From an uncultured Chlamydiae bacterium (lineage in GTDB: Bacteria; Chlamydiota; Chlamydiia; Chlamydiales; SM23-39): a DNA stretch of 64,000 nt. Below the pieces are notes generated by a model that saw only the letters and a list, made by a program, of their open reading frames with translations, did not search any database and was not told the origin of the DNA. Numbering within the stretch: position 1 is the first letter of the stretch; each line of letters opens with the position of its first letter. The stretch is from contig CAWHDP010000002.1 in assembly GCA_963828125.1 (NCBI GenBank), positions 1,280,001 to 1,344,000 of the forward strand, read 5' to 3'. This document shows positions 17,182 through 26,280 of the stretch, piece after piece. The translations under genes and the position numbers were made by a program.

Positions 17182-18352
17182 GGGCGCATTCCCATTTTCT
17201 GGGTAGCCACCTGACGGTCTATGCTGCATAGGGCAGGCCTCCCTCATAAGCCATCTTTTTTAACAGATTCCAGCGCCCGCTCTTGTAATACGCTCGCAGC
17301 AACAACACTTCTTCTGCGGTATCTTCTTTCCAGAAGATGCAGGGGCTTTTCAGCCTCAGATTGATCACTCGCCGCACCGCACTTTCGATTGCCCCGCTCC
17401 CTATCGGCATCTTGAGAGCTGCAACTTCCTTGTAGCAGAGCCGTTTTCGGTTATTGACGAAGTACATCAGCTCTCGCTGGAGGAGTTGACTCTTTGATCC
17501 CTTTACGTTCGGCAAAAACTCTTGTGCTGCTGGGTAGTACGATTTGCTCATGTCCATAGCGATTGCTTTTAACTTTGGTGCGTGCTTTGCCAGTTTCTTG
17601 AAAAAGGGAGCTACCGCCTCTATAGTTCTACCCTCTACAGCGTGAATAATGCTCCCCGACCGTAGATCTGTGAAAACGGTCATGTATTCATGCCCTTTCC
17701 GTATGCTGAATTCATCGACGGTAATGTATTCCAAATCTTCTAGAGGAATTGTTTTATAGAGAGCAGTCAATTTCTCTTTGTGGATCCTCTTCACGACATT
17801 CCAGCTAATTTTTAGAAATCGAGAGACATCCAAGAGAGTGCTAAAATGCAAAAGATCCAGCACGTGTGCGATCATGGAGCGCACCATTCGGAATTTGCCT
17901 TTCATAAAAGGCAATCGAGGCCACCATTTATGGCCACATTGAGGACATGCTACTCGATGTAGCAGCACGTTTAGAAAACAGGGCTTGCCGCCAAACGGCA
18001 CCATTTTAAACTGCCGCTTTTTTTGTCCCTTGAAGATTGTGCGCGTACAGCCACATTTGCATTGAGATGGATCGACCATTATAGCGTGGATCGTAATCGC
18101 CCCCGCTTCAAATTTGGTAGATTGGTATTGAACTCCGCTGATTCCGTATGCATGATACAAGAGAGAAGTAGACATAGAAGAAGCCTCCCGTGAGGGTGTT
18201 TGTTCAAGCTCCTTTTATATGTCTGCTTCTTTTCTTTCTACCCACCAGTCAAGACCTTTTAGAAATCACAACGCGCTGAATAATCAATACTTATAAAAAT
18301 CTAAGGACTTAATGCCTTTCCCCTCTACAGGTACTCATTTGTCGGATGAACC
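17182..18352 (-). mobile_element. Chimeric IS: ISL3 left part fused to an ISKra4/ISLre2-like right part (ORF 17219-18175)
   Basis: ISL3-type end GGTTCATCCGACAAAT at 18352; ISL3 motifs (zinc finger, VDEFSIRKGHEY, AMDMS) then PIGSGAIESAVRRVINLRLK; second end GGGCGCATTCCC at 17182. Confidence 0.8.
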
Positions 18353-19066
18353 AAAATTCTGAACACCCTGATTTGGATATTGACGACGGGGGCCCGCTGG
18401 TGTGATGTGCCAGTCGGTGATCAATGGGCTTCCAGAGCCTGCGCTCATAAATACTTGGGAGAGTGGAAAAAAAACGGAATTTTAGAACGCATTCTTACTG
18501 CATTAGAGGGGGTTTGCGTCGAATGGAAAATGGTTGATTTAACTCGATTGGCGATCGATGGATTTTTCTCTCCCGGGAAAGGAGGTGGAGAAAAAGTAGA
18601 CTATGGATACAAGGGGAAGGGAATGACTACTCATCTCCTTGTTGACGGTCTTGGGCAACCTCTTAAGGCTACGAGTACGGGGGCCTCTGGCGACGAACGC
18701 AAGGAAGTGATTCCGCTGTTAAAAAAAATCAGCGGATGGTTAAAACCAATTATTTCCCAAGGGATAACGCCAATCGTAGAGGCCGATAAGGGGTATGATG
18801 CAGAGGAATTGCGGCTGCAAATTCTAGCCATGAAGGTGTTTCCATACATTCCGTATCGACGCCTGGGGCGACATAAGTCGGAGGGTCAACTAAAAGTGTT
18901 GGAAAAATATCGATGGAAGGTCGAGCGGGGCATTTCGTGGTTGCAGAGGAAGTATCGACGATTGGTCGTACGGTGGGAGAGAAGGATGAAATATTGGGAA
19001 GGTTTTCTAGGGATGGGTATTTTGCTCTACTGGATACGAGAACTCATTAAATGGGGAGTTTGTGGA
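18353..19066 (+). pseudogene. IS5-family transposase, 5'-truncated by ISL3
   Basis: ADKGYD and RWKVERGISWL motifs; starts mid-gene relative to the copy at 24895. Confidence 0.85.
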
Positions 19067-19196
19067 GAAGGGACAAGAACAGTTGCTATGCTCATTTCTA
19101 AATAAGCGCCCCCCAAGGGACCTCTCCCCTTGAAAAGGGCGAACACTCCGGTTAAAAGATGTTTTAACTAGAAACAAACCAACCGGAGGTCCGCTT

Positions 19197-20297
19197 ATGA
19201 GGAACTATACAAACAAAACTGTTTATTTGGGAATGGACGTGCATAAAAAAACTTACGCCGTGACTGCAATTTGTGATGGTCAGGTCGTGAAGAAAGACAC
19301 CTTAAAAGCAGACCCTGCCATTTTGGTAGCTTACTGCAAAAAATATTTTATTGGAGCCAAAATCGAGAGCGCTTATGAAGCTGGGTTTTGCGGCTTTTAT
19401 TTACATCGATGTTTAAAAGCGCAGGGCATTACAAATATAGTGGTAGACGCAGCTGGAATGGAGGTTGCTGTCGGAGATCGAGTAAAAACAGATAAACGAG
19501 ACTCTCTGAAATTAGCCACTCATCTTTCAGTCGGAAGGTTGCGTGGAATACGCGTTCCTTCGGTCGAGCGCGAGGACTATAGGGCTGTAACACGACTACG
19601 AGAAACCTTTACTCGGCAACGATCACGTTTTGCTTGCCAGTTAAAATCATTGCTTTTTCAACACGGCTTGATTCGCGCTGATGACAAGAAAAAAATCTCC
19701 GAAAAGTGGGCAAAAGTTCTCGAGACAATGCCACTATCTGCAGGGCTAAAATTTGCTATTGCAAATTATCTCGCCCAATGGCGCCAAATGACCGCAAAAA
19801 TCAAGGAAATAAATCGGGAACTGGCTGTTCAAGCACAGAAAGATGGGGCTATAGAGGCGATTTACAGGAGCGTTCCAGGAATAGGAGAGGTGTCCGCTCG
19901 AGTTTTGGCCAATGAGCTTGAAGACACTTTACAATTTAGCAATGAGAAAACACTCTTTAGCTATACGGGACTTACTCCGAGCGAATACTCATCTGGCGAA
20001 CACGTTCGCCAAGGCCATATTACTCGGCACGGGAAACCTATTTTGCGAAAAATATTGGTACAGACAGCTTGGAAAGCGATTGGCATAGACTCTTCTCTCG
20101 AAGAAATTTTTCTGAGGCTTTCAACCAGAATTGGAAAGAAAAGGGCGATTATAGGCATAGCAAGGCGATTGATTGGTCGCATCCACGCTTGTTTTAGAAC
20201 GGGCGAATTGTATCGTATCCCATCAACTAAAAATGGAAAAGCAGAAGAGAAAAGCGTGGCTGTCCAAGAATCTCAGCTGGCTAACGTGACTCCGTAA
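19197..20297 (+). CDS. IS110-family (DEDD) recombinase/transposase
   Basis: GMDVHK, YEAG, KTDKRDS, SVPGIG, GLTPSEYSSG. Confidence 0.95.
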   Translation: MRNYTNKTVYLGMDVHKKTYAVTAICDGQVVKKDTLKADPAILVAYCKKYFIGAKIESAYEAGFCGFYLHRCLKAQGITNIVVDAAGMEVAVGDRVKTDKRDSLKLATHLSVGRLRGIRVPSVEREDYRAVTRLRETFTRQRSRFACQLKSLLFQHGLIRADDKKKISEKWAKVLETMPLSAGLKFAIANYLAQWRQMTAKIKEINRELAVQAQKDGAIEAIYRSVPGIGEVSARVLANELEDTLQFSNEKTLFSYTGLTPSEYSSGEHVRQGHITRHGKPILRKILVQTAWKAIGIDSSLEEIFLRLSTRIGKKRAIIGIARRLIGRIHACFRTGELYRIPSTKNGKAEEKSVAVQESQLANVTP

Positions 20298-20439
20298 ATT
20301 GCGAAGAGCAATTTACTCCGCTTTGCTCTCGAGGAAAAAAATGTAATTGAACTCTTGCCAACGAGAGACTAAAAAGTTAAACAAGGTAGTACAGACAAAA
20401 TAGTAAATTAAGGCAATGTCCGTAAAGCCGATTTGATGA

Positions 20440-20580
20440 AGTTTGGGGTGACCTTGTGCAATATCCTTGTGGCCATGCAAATGGACCACGCAGAACAGTT
20501 CAGGGCGCCCCGTTTTTTAATGTTCGAATAAACAACTTGGGCGCGCACTTACGGGTGTGACCTCGAATAGCAGGTTGGTC
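20440..20580 (+). ncRNA. Predicted IS110 bridge/seek RNA (target loop 20445-20511, donor loop ~20525-20580); ends approximate
   Basis: Two stem/internal-loop/hairpin units whose loop strands match the target (ATATCCT, AGAACAG) and donor (AACAACT, ATAGCAG) junction sequences. Confidence 0.8.
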
Positions 20581-20677
20581 TTAAATTTTTTTTAAAGGCC
20601 GAAATAACGAACAGCATCAAACGGTCGAGTAGGACAAAACAACTGGAGAAGTCTTATGACTTGACGAAATGACATAG

Positions 20678-20798
20678 CAGGATATGCATGATCGCAAGCG
20701 GCATGATGCAAAGGATAATTTAATATTTTTGGGATGCAGGGCTTCCCTGCATCCTGTGCATCATGCCTGATCTTGTGCATCCTGTTTTTTGTTTGCCC
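20678..20798. repeat. REP-like palindromic element built from CAGGATGCA-like units; IS110 target (left tip at ~19070-19082)
   Basis: Restored left arm ACAAGAACAGGATATGCATG...GGCATGATGCAAAGGAT is the imperfect reverse complement of ATCCTGTGCATCATGCC...TGCATCCTGTTTTTTGT. Confidence 0.6.
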
Positions 20799-21092
20799 AA
20801 AAATGATCATTGTTAAGATTTGAATAAGCATACAGAGATAGGTTCATGAACACAAATCCGTCCTCAATTTCAACTCGCACAATATCATTTAAAATCTTCT
20901 GCAAAGCGCTGATTTCGTTGCTGAGTCGTTGGATCGTGAAGTCTATGTCCTTTGTTTCTCTGCCGATGTCCACATACCGAGCCAATAGAGTCCCTCCTTT
21001 CAAGACAAAATGCGAGTGGTAGGGCGATCGGAATAGGCGTACAAGAAATCTTTCTGTGATGACGTTTTGCCAGACTTCAGCAGGAGTTATGC

Positions 21093-22392
21093 CAGGGCGA
21101 TTTAACTAAAATTTTTTGATACGCCTGAACAGAAAAATCTTACCAATATTCCTTTCAGATATCCGCTACCGAAAGTCGCTGCTCGTCTCACAGAGGCAAG
21201 CCCTCTATCCGGATCTGCAACTGCAGCCATATTCATAGCTAAGCGACGAAACAACCCCAAATTTTCTGCGCTATTTCCTCTGTCCATCAACACATCATCC
21301 TCTCTAAAGATCACATCAGCTACCCAATGGCAATTGTTTTCTACGTGCCAATGCTGCCTGGTCCACTTAGCAAAATGCTTGGCAGATGCTCGACGACTCG
21401 AAATATACAGCCGTCTTAACGTCTCGCTTGCGGTTGATCCGGTTTTTTGCCTTGTGGATCGTACTTCGACCAGGCAGACCAAGTTCTTCCATCTGTCAAC
21501 ATTAGGCAGCCAATCCAAGTCCTCTACGACTCGTACTTCTCGAATATCGATTCGACCATGACCTTTTTCGACTTCCTGGTAAAATGAATGTGAGATTTCC
21601 TCCCATTCGGCTGCATGTGCCTGATCGAAAAAATTTTCCAACTCAGCGCAAAGAGTGGGCTGGTTTTCTTTAACAGCCAACAGATAATCTGCTTTTGCAT
21701 CAACGATTTTTGCTGCTGATTCAGGTACGGTAAAATGAGCATCGCCCGAAATAATCGCACCTTCTACATCCACCTGCTCCAAAATAATTGGCAGTGTGCT
21801 CTTCTCGACCGTTTTATCGGGGACTTTTTCTGCGGCAAGACATAGACGATCTTCTGCAGCGAACAACTCTACTACATGGGTAATGCGGCCCAAAAAATTA
21901 GCCCCCCTCAGTCTTTTGCCGTCGATCGCCAACAGTTGATCGCGCAATGAACTAGGAATTTTACTGAACCATTTTTGTAAATAGCTCTTGAGAGCGTTCG
22001 GGGGTGTTTTGACTAAAAACCACCAAAGCGATCCATGGGAAGGAGCTGAAACCGGTTCTCCTAGTAGCGAGGCAAACCATTCCTCTTGTAGATGGGCATA
22101 TTCGGCAATTTCCTCGATAGTATTGCACCCGCAAAAGAACCCGCAGAGAATCACAAGGGATAGGTACCAAACGGGGTACAAGACTCGTTTTTGGTTGCGT
22201 CGATAATCAGGGAAATCGAAAAACGACCCCTTGACAGTCTCTGCAAATATATGCGCGTCGAATTCCTTACTGGCTTCTAGGATTTTGGCATCAATCGGTT
22301 TACGTCGTGACATAGGACCTCCTTAAATATGAGGTATTTACTATGCCATGTTACCAGATCTGTTATCAAAAAATTTTAGTTAAATCGCCCTG
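21093..22392 (-). mobile_element. ISAs1-family element
   Basis: 29-bp perfect IR CAGGGCGATTTAACTAAAATTTTTTGATA; 9-bp target duplication GAGTTATGC at 21084-92 and 22393-401. Confidence 0.95.
21102..22313 (-). CDS. ISAs1-family transposase
   Basis: AIDGKRLRG, AVKENQPTL, EKGHGRID, RQHWHVEN, DVIFRED. Confidence 0.95.
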   Translation of the reverse strand: MSRRKPIDAKILEASKEFDAHIFAETVKGSFFDFPDYRRNQKRVLYPVWYLSLVILCGFFCGCNTIEEIAEYAHLQEEWFASLLGEPVSAPSHGSLWWFLVKTPPNALKSYLQKWFSKIPSSLRDQLLAIDGKRLRGANFLGRITHVVELFAAEDRLCLAAEKVPDKTVEKSTLPIILEQVDVEGAIISGDAHFTVPESAAKIVDAKADYLLAVKENQPTLCAELENFFDQAHAAEWEEISHSFYQEVEKGHGRIDIREVRVVEDLDWLPNVDRWKNLVCLVEVRSTRQKTGSTASETLRRLYISSRRASAKHFAKWTRQHWHVENNCHWVADVIFREDDVLMDRGNSAENLGLFRRLAMNMAAVADPDRGLASVRRAATFGSGYLKGILVRFFCSGVSKNFS

Positions 22393-22458
22393 GAGTTATG
22401 CTTCTTTCCTTAGCAATGAGTTGCAGTCGTTTTTTAAATGATTGTTCTAATGCAGGTG

Positions 22459-24410
22459 TCGGCCATTTTCATAACTTCATCATTCGCCACCCCATCGGTG
22501 GTGATCAAGCCGCTTGATTTTCCGGCGCTTTTTGCACCTGCGTCTGTGCCCGCTTGCGCGGCCTGACCGGCAAGTCGATAGTACTCAGCAGCCACTCGAA
22601 CACATTTCGTTGCTTTTTTCCAAAAAATCTCTCCGCAGCGGTGCCGCCGTCCTTTCGTGAGGTAAAAAAATTGTGCAACACGGTGAGGGCTAGCAATTTG
22701 TTGGCACTCAGTTTGTGGAGTGCGTGATGTTTCAGTGATAAGACCCCGTTCCTCCCTTCGACACACGAGCTTGACCTTTGGAATAGAGCAGCGCATTGCC
22801 TGGCCTTTTTGCCCCAAACCGCTTGCTCGCGGGGAGTAAGGTTAGCCCAGGGACCATCCCTTTGGCGGACCACTAAACGCGAGATGCTTTGAATCATCAC
22901 GACCTTTTGGCTTTTGTCTGTGCATCGCTTCAAAACCATCTGGAGATACTCTATAGCGACAAGGCACTCGAACGCCTGACGGCCCTGCTCGTCTAATGCG
23001 AGTCCCTGCATGACCTGGAGTAAACATCGGAAAAAAAACGCCAGAGTTTGTACCATTGATTTAGTCGCGCCTTTGGCTTTCCCGAGCTTTTTCCTTTGGC
23101 CATCTGTACTGTCGATCCGTTCGGATACTGTCTCAAGGATCTCGTGAACCTCTACTAATTCCTTCCGCAGCTGTTCAGGAGATCGGGTGGTGCCCGTGCT
23201 GAGATCGTAAGGATGGTAGCAGGTAGTAATGGCTCTTCTGGCATCCCTCACGATCTGGTAATCTTGTTTAGCCTCCTCTAAGACTTTCCGACATTCTTGC
23301 TCATGGCTGTCTTCCTCGAGCAATTGTTTGCCGATCTTTGCAACTTGCGGAGTGGGGTTGTCGAGCGAAGAGCCCGTTGTCTGCACGACCTCTGTGAGTT
23401 TTTTGAACCTCTCTTGTTTCATTGCCGTGGAGTCGCTGAGAGCTTTTTCAGCATGCTGCACTCTTCGGGCTAGCACACTTGTTAGCCCTCTTGTGATATC
23501 TTGCTGAACGTGGAATAAATCCGATGCCTTACTCGCGCCTAAGAGCTCTTGGGCATACTTTATAATACCGCCTGCTTCATCGCCCGTAACCTGCACGATT
23601 TTTACATTCAGCCCATTGGTGGCTGCTTGCGACACTCTCATCCAGGTCGCTGCATCTCGCTTATCCTCCTGTTGCTCTGCGAGGATAAAACCAGAATCTG
23701 GTTCCATCAGAATAAGAGTCATGTTCTCCATGATGAAGTTCTCATCAACAGCAGCGGTCATCTCCTTCAAAGACATGCCCTCGGCCATGCGAACGCGCTC
23801 CTGTTTGCCGAACTCAATCAATTGCTGGTTAATCTGAGCGGACACACCGTGCAATGCGCCAATGGATGATCCGACGAATGCACTGAGTTTGCTCAGTTCC
23901 AGGAACTTCTGTAGGGACGGCAGCCCACAACCACCTGTTGCGTGGAATACAAGATAGGCCCCTACCAATATGCCGTGTAAATGGGCCAGCCCTTCGGGAA
24001 ACTCGTAGAAGAGAACCACTTTGGGGTCTACACTGTCCTTGGGTTGATTGACCCTTCTGACCCAAGCTTGGACCGCGGGCCTTGATACGCCGTATTCCTC
24101 CGCGACTTCTCTCTGGGTTCTTTTTTTCTCAATGACTTTCCGGGTGGCTTCCGCCTGCTTGGCCCGATCAATGACGCGATATATTCTTGTATTTTTTGGC
24201 TCGACCGAAGATGCTGTTTCCATAGCTCGTTTTTTGCAACCCTTTAGCTTCAACAACCAAAGAATTTGCTATAAACGAGCTATTTTTTGAAAGAACCCTC
24301 CATCAGGCCGCGCAAGCGGGTGCAGACGTGGGTGCAAAAAACATCGGGAAATCAAGCGGCTTGATCACCACCGATGGGGTGGCGAATGATGAAGTTATGA
24401 AAATGGCCGA
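22459..24410 (-). mobile_element. IS-like element with ~108-bp terminal inverted repeats encoding a DUF6399-type protein
   Basis: 22459-22567 is the reverse complement of 24302-24410, with the outer ~62 bp perfect; the element cuts an IS5 copy on its right. Confidence 0.85.
22505..24223 (-). CDS. Putative DDE-like transposase (HTH + DUF6399-like)
   Basis: N-terminal HTH (TQREVAEEYGVSRPAVQAW); VDENF, TGDEA, DLFHVQ, FQRSSSCVEGRNG. Confidence 0.75.
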   Translation of the reverse strand: METASSVEPKNTRIYRVIDRAKQAEATRKVIEKKRTQREVAEEYGVSRPAVQAWVRRVNQPKDSVDPKVVLFYEFPEGLAHLHGILVGAYLVFHATGGCGLPSLQKFLELSKLSAFVGSSIGALHGVSAQINQQLIEFGKQERVRMAEGMSLKEMTAAVDENFIMENMTLILMEPDSGFILAEQQEDKRDAATWMRVSQAATNGLNVKIVQVTGDEAGGIIKYAQELLGASKASDLFHVQQDITRGLTSVLARRVQHAEKALSDSTAMKQERFKKLTEVVQTTGSSLDNPTPQVAKIGKQLLEEDSHEQECRKVLEEAKQDYQIVRDARRAITTCYHPYDLSTGTTRSPEQLRKELVEVHEILETVSERIDSTDGQRKKLGKAKGATKSMVQTLAFFFRCLLQVMQGLALDEQGRQAFECLVAIEYLQMVLKRCTDKSQKVVMIQSISRLVVRQRDGPWANLTPREQAVWGKKARQCAALFQRSSSCVEGRNGVLSLKHHALHKLSANKLLALTVLHNFFTSRKDGGTAAERFFGKKQRNVFEWLLSTIDLPVRPRKRAQTQVQKAPENQAA

Positions 24411-24895
24411 TTTTTTTTTAACAGCGGAATCACTTCCTTGCGTTCGTCGCCAGAGGCCCCCGTACTCGTAGCCTTAAGAGGTTGCCCAAGACCGTCAACA
24501 AGGAGATGAGTAGTCATTCCCTTCCCCTTGTATCCATAGTCTACTTTTTCTCCACCTCCTTTCCCGGGAGAGAAAAATCCATCGATCGCCAATCGAGTTA
24601 AATCAACCATTTTCCATTCGACGCAAACCCCCTCTAATGCAGTAAGAATGCGTTCTAAAATTCCGTTTTTTTTCCACTCTCCCAAGTATTTATGAGCGCA
24701 GGCTCTGGAAGCCCATTGATCACCGACTGGCACATCACACCAGCGGGCCCCCGTCGTCAATATCCAAATCAGGGTGTTCAGAATTTTTCTTGGATGAAGC
24801 GGTTGCTTACCTCTGAAAGTAATCCCCCATTTATAGGGTATGAATGGCTCTACAACAGCCCATTCTTGATCGTTCAGTCCTATAAATTTACCCAT
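24411..24895 (-). pseudogene. IS5-family transposase, 3'-truncated; inverted copy of the 18353 element
   Basis: 24411-24788 matches the reverse complement of ~18353-18730. Confidence 0.88.
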
Positions 24896-24964
24896 AGCCC
24901 ACCTCCTGTAAAGTAAGTGGACATGATGTCATATAAAGATTTTATGTTCTATCTAAAGATATGC

Positions 24965-26280
24965 TCATTCTTTCGTATTCGAAATTAATTGATCTAGGAG
25001 ATGAGGCAACTTAAACCCTTTATTTTTCAAATAGACCAGGCATTCGATAGGGGAAGCGACCACCGTCCCTTTACTTTCTTTGGCTGATTTTATCTTATCG
25101 GCACTTACTGCGGATTTTAAAAAGGTATAGGCTTTGGACGTATCGAATATTGCGCCAATGCCATGCAAAACATTGTCGCTTAAATTTTCCCCACGCGCGA
25201 CTCGACTAATCTGAAATAGGTTGAGTGCATCCAATGAAAGGATAGATTCATATTCAGATTGAGAGATCTCAACATTCGATAAGGCTTCTTTAATTAGATG
25301 CCGACTCCTCCTTTGATGATCGGAAAGAAGGCTATGGGCGTATCCCATCAGCGGAATGGTGAGAGGTTCTCCATTCTTGGTGGTACGGAGTCGAATGACG
25401 CCCTCTGCAAAATTCACGTCTCCCCATTTGAGGTTTATTATTTTACCGGCACGCATCCCCGTGGAAAGGGCGAGAACCACAATCAGTAGAAGAACCGGAC
25501 ACTTGCTTTTCTTGACCTCCTCAAGAAGCGCTGTCTGCTCCTCGCGGGAGAGATAACGCTGTCTTGCATTTGAGAGGGAAGGCTTGGTGATCTTGAAGAC
25601 GGGGTTCTCAGGAATCCACTCCCACTCTTTCCAGGCGACGGATAGGAGGTGGGAGAGGGAGGCGATGTAGCGGATCACTGTGCCGGGCGCGCGCTTGGTC
25701 TTTTTGGCGGACTCTTCAGTTTCTAGAATCGAAATAGTCGCTTTGATGAGGGAAGGGCGAATGAGAGCCAGCGAAGAAGCCCCGAGATGTTGATTCCACC
25801 AGTCAAGGTGATGTTTTCGGTTTCGGGCATCATTTCCTTTTTTTGGAAGTTCCTCCTTGTAGTATCGAGCCACGGCCTCTGCAAAGGTTTTTTTAGATGC
25901 AAGGGCATTAGGAAGATAGATCCCAAGGTCAACGTTGCGCTGTTGTTCATTGAGCCACTTTTTAGCCATTTTGGCATCAACAAAGGTCTGAATGAGGTCG
26001 GGGCAGCCAGTTCAACGGAATCGGGCTCGGAATGTAATCACTTTTTTGGAGCTAATGCGAATGTCTATGCCTGGGGGCAGATTTTTTTAAGTGCTTCTAA
26101 CTGCTTCATTGTGATGACCCTATTTTTTAGTGTAAAAATTGGGTCAGCTGCTGTTGCAGTGGTGGAGCTTCCTGCGACTTCCTGTTGTTTGCTGGGCTCA
26201 TTTGGTCCAGGATTGGTCCACGGCGGTAGAATCGCCAAGAGGCCTGGATCTGGAGGACCTAATGAGTCGTCTTCGGGCAT
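24965..26280 (-). pseudogene. Element 3 integrase pseudogene (paralog of 60943-62220), fused to an unrelated C-terminus
   Basis: 1-nt deletion near 26080 and an in-frame TGA near 26012; homology ends at ~25280, before HxxR/H/Y. Confidence 0.9.

What the first reader, a model, noticed from the sequence alone, without database searches (positions are those of the whole stretch)
19070..20690. IS110 bridge RNA that can be decoded against its own insertion site
Seen: the left junction is AGAAC-AG-TTGCT and the right is ATAGC-AG-GATAT. The empty target is therefore AGAACAGGATAT and the circle junction ATAGCAGTTGCT (core CT on the bottom strand). Downstream of the recombinase, stem GGGGTG..CCTTG/CAGGG.CGCCCC (20445-20511) encloses ATATCCT (20461-67) and AGAACAG (20492-98) around a GCAA-capped hairpin; both match the target 7/7. 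A second loop holds AACAACT (20531-37, 6/7) and ATAGCAG (20567-73, 7/7), matching the donor. Known: IS110 recombinases use bispecific bridge/seek RNAs. Inferred: an intact programmable RNA-guided recombinase with a 3' RNA, symmetric ~7+7 guides read opposite to the transposase direction, and a palindromic donor.
Basis: partly seen in the sequence, partly recalled or inferred. Interest (0 to 1): 0.88.

Follow-up and report, generated by a model that had tools for sequence, protein, structure and literature searches.

The report
IS1111-type jumping gene with bridge RNA
This is a small jumping gene whose tail encodes a two-loop guide RNA that spells out both its landing site and its own ends; the mechanism has been known since 2024, so it is a very well supported new example, not a new kind of system.

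Summary
19081-20680 is an intact 1.6-kb IS110-family element, one of three copies in the genome. Downstream of its recombinase lies a two-loop RNA whose structure shows compensatory changes (24 of 32 pairs). Across 81 homologue clusters the target-loop guides track each element's own flanks: 4.1 and 4.2 of 5 non-core bases, against 1.5 and 2.1 when permuted (0 of 20,000). The 3' donor guide tracks the right end (60 of 66 exact). New here: the handshake base of the donor loop follows the target base next to the core (58 of 63). There are also bulged subterminal repeats at 7/3 offsets and a junction promoter. Corrections: a 3' RNA with 'reversed' guide order is the published IS1111 pattern (Siddiquee 2024). 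The palindromic donor is incidental, being absent in the TG-core subclade. The 'empty site' is a chimera of two repeat copies and occurs nowhere in the genome. No expression or activity data exist. The scan has reported this kind of element in several other genomes. Verdict: a new member, in an apparently uncatalogued clade, of a known kind.

The parts
19076..19080 (+). left target flank (5 nt), read by the 3' target-loop guide
   Evidence: family covariation
19081..19082 (+). left AG core (CT on the bottom strand)
   Evidence: three genomic copies diverge here
19083..19196 (+). short left non-coding end (114 nt), holding the donor half-site, a candidate -10 box (19087-19092) and the left subterminal repeat
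19088..19098 (+). left subterminal inverted repeat, 7 nt from the end counting the core, with a 1-nt bulge against the right copy
   Evidence: 7 nt beyond ATG: 5.77 vs 4.27 permuted, 0 of 20,000, n=53
19197..20297 (+). IS110-family DEDD recombinase, 366 aa; D14, E61, D99, D102 and S266 intact
   Evidence: PF01548 + PF02371; NF033542 above cut-off; residues invariant in 11 of 11 aligned homologues; identical protein in 3 copies
20298..20678 (+). long right non-coding end (381 nt)
   Evidence: family median 407 nt from the last aligned codon vs 111 nt on the left
20445..20511 (+). target-binding domain of the predicted bridge/seek RNA (outer stem, internal loop, inner GCAA-capped hairpin)
20461..20467 (+). 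5' target guide, complementary to the top strand of core + right flank
   Evidence: 7/7 here; family 4.24 of 5 vs 2.07
20492..20498 (+). 3' target guide, identical to left flank + core (pairs with the bottom strand)
   Evidence: 7/7 here; family 4.10 of 5 vs 1.50; 49 of 68 sister-pair changes followed
20499..20500 (+). target-loop handshake dinucleotide; extends the match across the left junction to 9/9
   Evidence: nearly invariant on both sides, so consistent with pairing but not covariation
20524..20578 (+). donor-binding domain (short outer stem, internal loop, inner hairpin)
   Evidence: weak in the single-sequence fold
20531..20537 (+). 5' donor guide, 6/7; the A-for-G mismatch at position 2 is common in the family (35 of 62)
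20567..20573 (+). 3' donor guide, identical to right end + core
   Evidence: 60 of 66 clusters exact over 5 nt with ends found without the guide
20574..20575 (+). donor-loop handshake dinucleotide; the first base matches the first target base after the core
   Evidence: 58 of 63; 8 of 8 sister-pair changes
20661..20675 (+). candidate -35 box (20661-66) and right subterminal repeat (20666-75), 3 nt before the core
20679..20680 (+). right AG core
20681..20847 (+). right flank: palindromic REP-like repeat, present elsewhere in the genome without the element

Best explanation
An intact IS1111-type member of the IS110 family with a bispecific bridge (long seek) RNA in its right end. Steps: (1, inferred) the element circularises at its AG cores, joining the right-end -35 box to the left-end -10 box across 18 nt, and the new promoter transcribes the recombinase gene and the downstream RNA. 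(2, supported by covariation) the target loop pairs with both strands of a 12-bp target (5+2+5) and the donor loop with both strands of the circle junction, which lies between short subterminal repeats. (3, inferred from IS621 structures, supported by covariation of one handshake base) the RuvC-DEDD plus Tnp-serine recombinase exchanges strands at the core, and handshake bases pair with the partner DNA after the first exchange. Read on the bottom strand of the gene, the geometry is that of IS621 (CT core, left guide first). The reversed order is thus a flip of ends and target relative to the gene and RNA, not different chemistry. The natural target in this genome is mostly the end of a CAGGAT-type palindromic repeat.
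For: Pfam/NCBIfam identity and intact catalytic residues. Three near-identical copies with identical ends. Two-domain fold with 24 of 32 pairs changed on both sides and 94.6% of cells paired. Target guides vs own flanks: 4.10 of 5 (n=60) and 4.24 of 5 (n=63) vs 1.50 and 2.07 permuted, 0 of 20,000; the IS621-sense order gives only 1.97 vs 1.72 and 1.38 vs 1.29. Sister pairs: 49 of 68 guide changes followed by both flanks, 1 reversed. Donor guide 60 of 66 exact with guide-free ends. Handshake base 58 of 63 vs 0.45 permuted, and matching the element's own donor in 0 of 61, as the IS621 rule predicts (PMC11208158). Junction -35/-10 spacing of 17-18 nt in 48 of 50.
Against: No expression or activity data. 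The single-sequence fold is only z=-1.96 and the donor domain is poorly formed alone (pair probabilities of 0.5 or less). The 5' donor guide mismatches at position 2 in 35 of 62 clusters, and two of its positions were fixed by my left-end pattern. The second handshake base shows little signal (17 of 63). 12 of 60 clusters match their left flank at 3 of 5 or fewer, and 10 of 63 their right flank. The protein is remote from both IS4321 (22.6%) and IS621 (E=2e-5), so group membership rests on DNA/RNA features.
Confidence: 0.92

Rival explanations
1. seekRNA model: only the target domain (about 70 nt, 20445-20511) is the working guide, cut from the long transcript. The ends are read mainly by protein at the subterminal repeats, and the donor loop is accessory or used at only one step.
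For: Siddiquee et al. found short 70-100-nt seekRNAs dominant and sufficient for ISEc11. In CazIS110-1 the target-loop-only RNA is 90% of transcripts. Here a run of T (20512-18) follows the target domain, the donor domain folds weakly alone, and the subterminal repeats covary.
Against: The 3' donor guide covaries with the right end (60 of 66), the donor-loop handshake base covaries with the target (58 of 63), and the donor hairpin has 8 of 10 pairs changed on both sides. The donor loop is therefore under selection to pair with both DNAs.
Confidence: 0.15
2. The matches act at the DNA level (short homology or protein-read repeats), or the loops merely copy neighbouring DNA, and no RNA guide is involved.
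For: No transcript evidence here. A 113-bp tandem duplication between the donor-guide DNA and the right end in L019 shows that these short identities can recombine or misassemble as DNA.
Against: One guide is the complement and the other the identity of the flanks, overlapping at the core. Both sit in unpaired loops of a compensated fold, and 54 different 3' guides track 57 different flanks.
Confidence: 0.03
3. The family is real but this copy is a dead relic.
For: The window's flanks are a chimeric pair, and the third copy is interrupted by another 2.6-kb mobile element.
Against: The ORF is intact and identical in all three copies, copy 2 is 99.9% identical over the element, and all guides match this element's junctions.
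Confidence: 0.1

Closest known systems
IS1111-family elements with seekRNA (ISEc11, ISPa11, ISKpn4, ISPst6; Siddiquee et al. 2024, PMC11187229; abstract, passages, sections 6 and 14 read, supplements searched)
   Same: [quoted passage not shown]
   Different: Repeats here are about 9-10 bp with a 1-nt bulge, not 11-13 bp and near-perfect. The protein is only 22-26% identical to IS4321/ISShdy1. That paper describes target matches; here a full donor loop and a handshake base are also readable.
IS621 / ISCro4 (IS622) bridge recombinases (Durrant et al. 2024, PMC11208160, passages; Hiraizumi et al. 2024, PMC11208158, passages; Perry et al. 2025, first part of 8)
   Same: Two internal loops, target loop 5' of donor loop, both strands read with overlap at a CT core, handshake dinucleotides 3' of the second guide, REP-like target.
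   Different: RNA lies 3' of the gene; ends and target are read on the opposite strand; natural target guides are symmetric 7+7 rather than 8-9 plus 4-7; protein similarity is limited to the C-terminal domain (E about 2e-5).
ISEc45 / ISCARN28 group (ISfinder; both labelled IS1111 in Siddiquee's source data; ISCARN28 is one of six RNAs drawn in Durrant Fig. 6d, legend only seen)
   Same: ISEc45 is the nearest named element among the plasmid hits I listed (30% identity, E=2e-32); similar N-terminal motifs; by eye a TTGAC..CAT right end and an ATG-starting left repeat.
   Different: The RNA profile built here does not hit the ISEc45 3' end. The clade studied (77 tree rows, SH-aLRT 98) lies apart from it on long branches.

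Membership tests
IS110 family | [quoted passage not shown] | tested here: met
   S266 aligns with the serine of the IS621 ESG motif
IS110 family | Recombination around a short core present at both junctions, no variable target duplication | tested here: met
   AG at both ends of all three copies; AG in 46 and TG in 7 of 53 clusters (the end search required the same core at both ends)
IS110 family | Circular intermediate | tested here: inconclusive
   No joint in contigs of 4 DNA runs; contigs drop rare forms
Bridge RNA | Conserved two-loop structure in a non-coding end | tested here: met
   on 30 hand-picked diverse sequences of 109; no Rfam match
Bridge RNA | Target-loop guides covary with both target strands and overlap at the core | tested here: met
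Bridge RNA | Donor-loop guides match the circle junction | tested here: met
   3' guide; 5' guide 4.06 vs 3.69 of 5 with a common mismatch
Bridge RNA | Handshake guides pair with the non-cognate DNA | tested here: met
   donor-loop position 1: 58 of 63 and 8 of 8 sister changes; position 2 weak; target-loop handshake nearly invariant
Bridge RNA | RNA is expressed, binds the recombinase and is reprogrammable | not testable with these tools
   needs bench work; no RNA holder was listed
IS1111 group | Long non-coding region downstream of the gene | tested here: met
   114 vs 381 nt; medians 111 vs 407
IS1111 group | Top-strand complement precedes bottom-strand match | tested here: met
   with the opposite order as control; rule
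IS1111 group | Subterminal inverted repeats 7 and 3 nt from the ends (7-17 bp per Durrant; usually 11-13 bp, near-perfect per Siddiquee) | tested here: met
   offsets exact; 10 bp with one bulge in the window; covary across 53 clusters; shorter and less perfect than the usual case
IS1111 group | Transposase related over its full length to IS1111 and inside that clade | tested here: inconclusive
   only four named references, on long branches, quick tree without bootstrap; nearest is ISEc45, labelled IS1111

The most novel reading that the evidence does not exclude
This is an uncatalogued, deep clade of IS1111-type recombinases (81 clusters, 54 natural 3' target guides) that keeps a simple IS621-like two-loop RNA with symmetric 7+7 target guides and a covarying handshake base. 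If so, the 'reversed order' of IS1111 seekRNAs is only a strand flip of one conserved bridge mechanism, which answers the doubt raised by Siddiquee et al. that the two families work differently. The clade would also supply a ready-made, naturally reprogrammed panel of compact recombinases with a 12-bp target.
Probability: 0.4. Interest if true: 0.55.

Novelty: new member of a known kind. Interest (0 to 1): 0.36.

Why it matters
Bridge recombinases are sought as genome-editing tools, and solved structures exist only for IS621 and ISCro4 among the hits here. This clade offers an intact element with fully readable guides and dozens of natural retargetings. It gives comparative evidence that handshake pairing also operates in elements with the IS1111 layout, and a clean test of whether the two groups share one mechanism. 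It does not add a new kind of system.

Tried and rejected
Rfam scan of 18900-20900: no match to E=1. Exact empty target or exact circle junction in the genome: none. Sequencing runs: no RNA holder listed. Contigs of 4 DNA runs showed no circle or empty-site joint (contigs show presence, not absence). Viral contigs: 4 pattern matches, no relative. Promoter/terminator scan of the linear element: 4 and 2 sites against 2.8 and 1.7 expected, nothing informative. IS621-sense reading of the guides: rejected (the 5'-guide control is slightly above null, 241 of 20,000, but at 1.97 of 5). Donor palindrome as a requirement: rejected. The RNA profile did not detect the 3' ends of ISEc45, IS4321, ISRel9 or ISShdy1. 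My first extraction of the 5' target guide was one column off in several subclades, so I scored the better of two registers, for the null as well. My first donor outer stem was mis-registered by one base and was corrected. The careful tree did not finish; only the quick tree is used. No structure prediction or complex job was run.

Full report
Observation. The ORF 19197-20297 is a 366-aa IS110 recombinase: PF01548 and PF02371, and NF033542 at 207 bits against a cut-off of 140. D14, E61, D99, D102 and S266 are invariant in 11 of 11 aligned homologues. The genome holds three copies with identical protein. They diverge from one another exactly at the AG dinucleotides 19081-82 and 20679-80, which fixes a 1,600-bp element with a 114-nt left and a 381-nt right non-coding end. 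Both target 7-mers appear together in 2 of 20,000 Markov resamples of the 3' region.

Own insertion site. The three copies have the flank pairs AGAAC/GATAT (window), AGAAC/GCTAT and GGAAC/GATAT, so all six half-sites match the target guides at 6 or 7 of 7. The window's reconstructed 12-mer occurs nowhere in the genome; 11 sites carry one mismatch and an intact core. The window's left flank belongs to an IS5-linked allele that continues GATTT in four empty sites. Its right flank belongs to a different repeat, which is preceded by GGAAC in copy 3 and in two empty sites. Copy 2's right flank is a gene that has lost its start. The simplest reading (inference) is that flanks were exchanged by recombination between copies or by one-ended reactions; only copy 3 is a clean insertion. 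Contigs of run X1 (a possible source of this DNA) show the same two left and two right flank types. The right flank is a palindromic repeat. A motif from it occurs 16 times in the genome against 0-2 in five shuffles, and homologues in named Chlamydiota genomes often sit in similar CAGGAT repeats. This recalls REP targeting by IS621.

Homologues. Searches of species genomes, metagenomes, relatives and plasmids gave 143 loci. The closest named ones are Chlamydiota MAGs; cyanobacterial plasmids carry relatives at about 50%. Of the 143, 125 had at least 40% identity and enough downstream DNA, and 109 of these hit an iterated profile of the RNA. The 16 misses are mostly truncated contigs, fragments or the interrupted copy 3. 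The 109 fall into 81 clusters at 90% ORF identity. On 30 diverse sequences that I picked, RNAalifold returns the target domain and the donor hairpin. With a 3-bp donor outer stem added, 24 of 32 pairs change on both sides and 94.6% of cells pair. That structure came from the same alignment, so the slid control is favourable by construction. The non-core target-guide columns are the variable ones (consensus 30-60%), while the donor guides are 67-100% conserved.

Covariation. Ends were located with conserved end motifs and the donor guide, never with the target guides. One locus per cluster was used, the first by id with the flank present. The 3' target guide matches the left flank at 4.10 of 5 non-core bases (n=60 of 81; 48 at 4 or 5; null 1.50). 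The 5' guide matches the complement of the right flank at 4.24 (n=63 of 81; 53 at 4 or 5; better of two registers; null 2.07). No permutation of 20,000 reached either value. The match ends after 7 positions (39 then 16 of 59; 48 then 29 of 63). The opposite, IS621-sense order gives 1.97 vs 1.72 and 1.38 vs 1.29. Because kin share guides, I also compared 28 independent sister pairs: of 68 guide positions that differ, both flanks follow their own guide in 49 and the other guide in 1. With right ends found without the guide, the 3' donor guide is exact over 5 nt in 60 of 66 clusters (null 3.67, 0 of 20,000), across eight end types. The 5' donor guide is weaker, 4.06 vs 3.69, with A against donor G at position 2 in 35 of 62 clusters; two of its positions were fixed by my end pattern.

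(a) Handshake guides. In IS621 the two bases after the second guide of each loop pair with the other DNA after top-strand exchange, and pairing with the own DNA blocks exchange (PMC11208158, passages). Here the first such base of the donor loop equals the first target base after the core in 58 of 63 clusters (null 0.45). It follows 8 of 8 sister changes and matches the element's own donor in 0 of 61. The second base carries little signal (17 of 63). The target-loop handshake (TT at 20499-500) extends the left-junction match to 9/9 but is nearly invariant. (b) Subterminal repeats begin 7 nt (core included) from the left and 3 nt from the right, the IS1111 offsets, usually with one bulged base. 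They covary between ends (5.77 vs 4.27, n=53). (c) Joining the ends places a TTGAC-type box 17-18 nt from TATG(C/A/T)T in 48 of 50 clusters where both boxes were found; this is a consensus match only.

What is not new. [quoted passage not shown] Durrant et al. predicted right-end bridge RNAs in 93% of IS1111 elements (PMC11208160, passages). The donor palindrome is complete in 27 of 46 AG-core clusters and absent (3 of 7 positions) in all 7 TG-core clusters, so it is incidental. The nearest named element among those I listed is ISEc45 at 30%, labelled IS1111. The quick tree holds the 77 clade rows together (SH-aLRT 98), apart from four named references on long branches, so exact group placement by protein is open. 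Searches for IS110 + bridge RNA + Chlamydia and for IS1111 + handshake listed no paper whose title or abstract concerns this clade or handshake covariation in IS1111 elements. I saw those papers as listings, except the ones cited here. I could not see Durrant's Extended Data Fig. 10c, parts of its supplementary tables (cut when stored), or the supplements of bioRxiv 10.64898/2026.10.21.760802, which models 32,190 bridge RNAs (passages and section 8). Any of these may already cover the clade. Also consulted: Perry et al. (part 1 of 8), Sun et al. (part 1 of 5), PMC13626964 and PMC13604230 (passages). Earlier notes of this scan report the same kind of element in other genomes; none matched this protein.

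Mechanism. Shown by comparison: element ends, guide-target and guide-donor pairing potential, the fold, and one handshake base. Inferred from IS621/IS1111 work: circle formation, transcription from the junction promoter, a tetrameric complex and strand exchange at the core. Read on the bottom strand, the target is 5+CT+5 and the donor is 5+CT+3 between CAT and ATG, with the left guide first, as in IS621. The rival seekRNA reading, in which the target domain alone does most of the work, cannot be excluded for single steps, but the donor loop is clearly under selection. Verdict: a real, intact and very well supported bridge-RNA element of the IS1111 type; a new member of a known kind; interest 0.36.

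Noticed in passing
L019:3044-3276: The last 113 bp of a homologous element are duplicated in tandem between the DNA that encodes the 3' donor guide and the true right end, both ATAGCAG. This could be self-recombination of the end with its own guide gene, slippage, or an assembly artefact.
   Followed up: partly
window 20681-20847 and 16 motif matches in G000: A family of CAGGAT-ended palindromic REP-like repeats. Many chlamydial homologues of the element are inserted in similar repeats. No mobilising enzyme was sought.
   Followed up: partly
window 17182-24968: A dense nest of mobile elements: an ISL3-type gene (17219-18175), an IS5-family ORF (18380-19105, with a reversed partial copy at 24395-24895), a DDE_Tnp_1 transposase (21102-22313) and a multi-copy DUF6399 element with terminal repeats (22458-24416).
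   Followed up: partly
window 18380-19105: The IS5-family ORF reads across the left junction, so the IS110 element supplies its last codons. Both apparent ends of that IS5 are followed by the same repeat, so its true boundary is unclear.
   Followed up: partly
G000:C1:416771-419400: Copy 3 of the element is interrupted in its right non-coding end, upstream of the RNA, by a 2.6-kb multi-copy mobile element.
   Followed up: partly
G000:C2:1526389-1527370: Copy 2 is joined to an N-terminally truncated gene with two 67%-identical paralogues. It resembles a DUF1016/YhcG-type nuclease (recalled, not tested).
   Followed up: no
window 20468-20490 and 20538-20565: The two loops share one scaffold motif (guide-TGTG...CACG-N-guide), which suggests that the RNA arose by duplication of one module.
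   Followed up: no
L096, L106, L108, L111, L112, L116, L126: A subclade whose guides and flanks spell an A-run, AG, G-run target.
   Followed up: no
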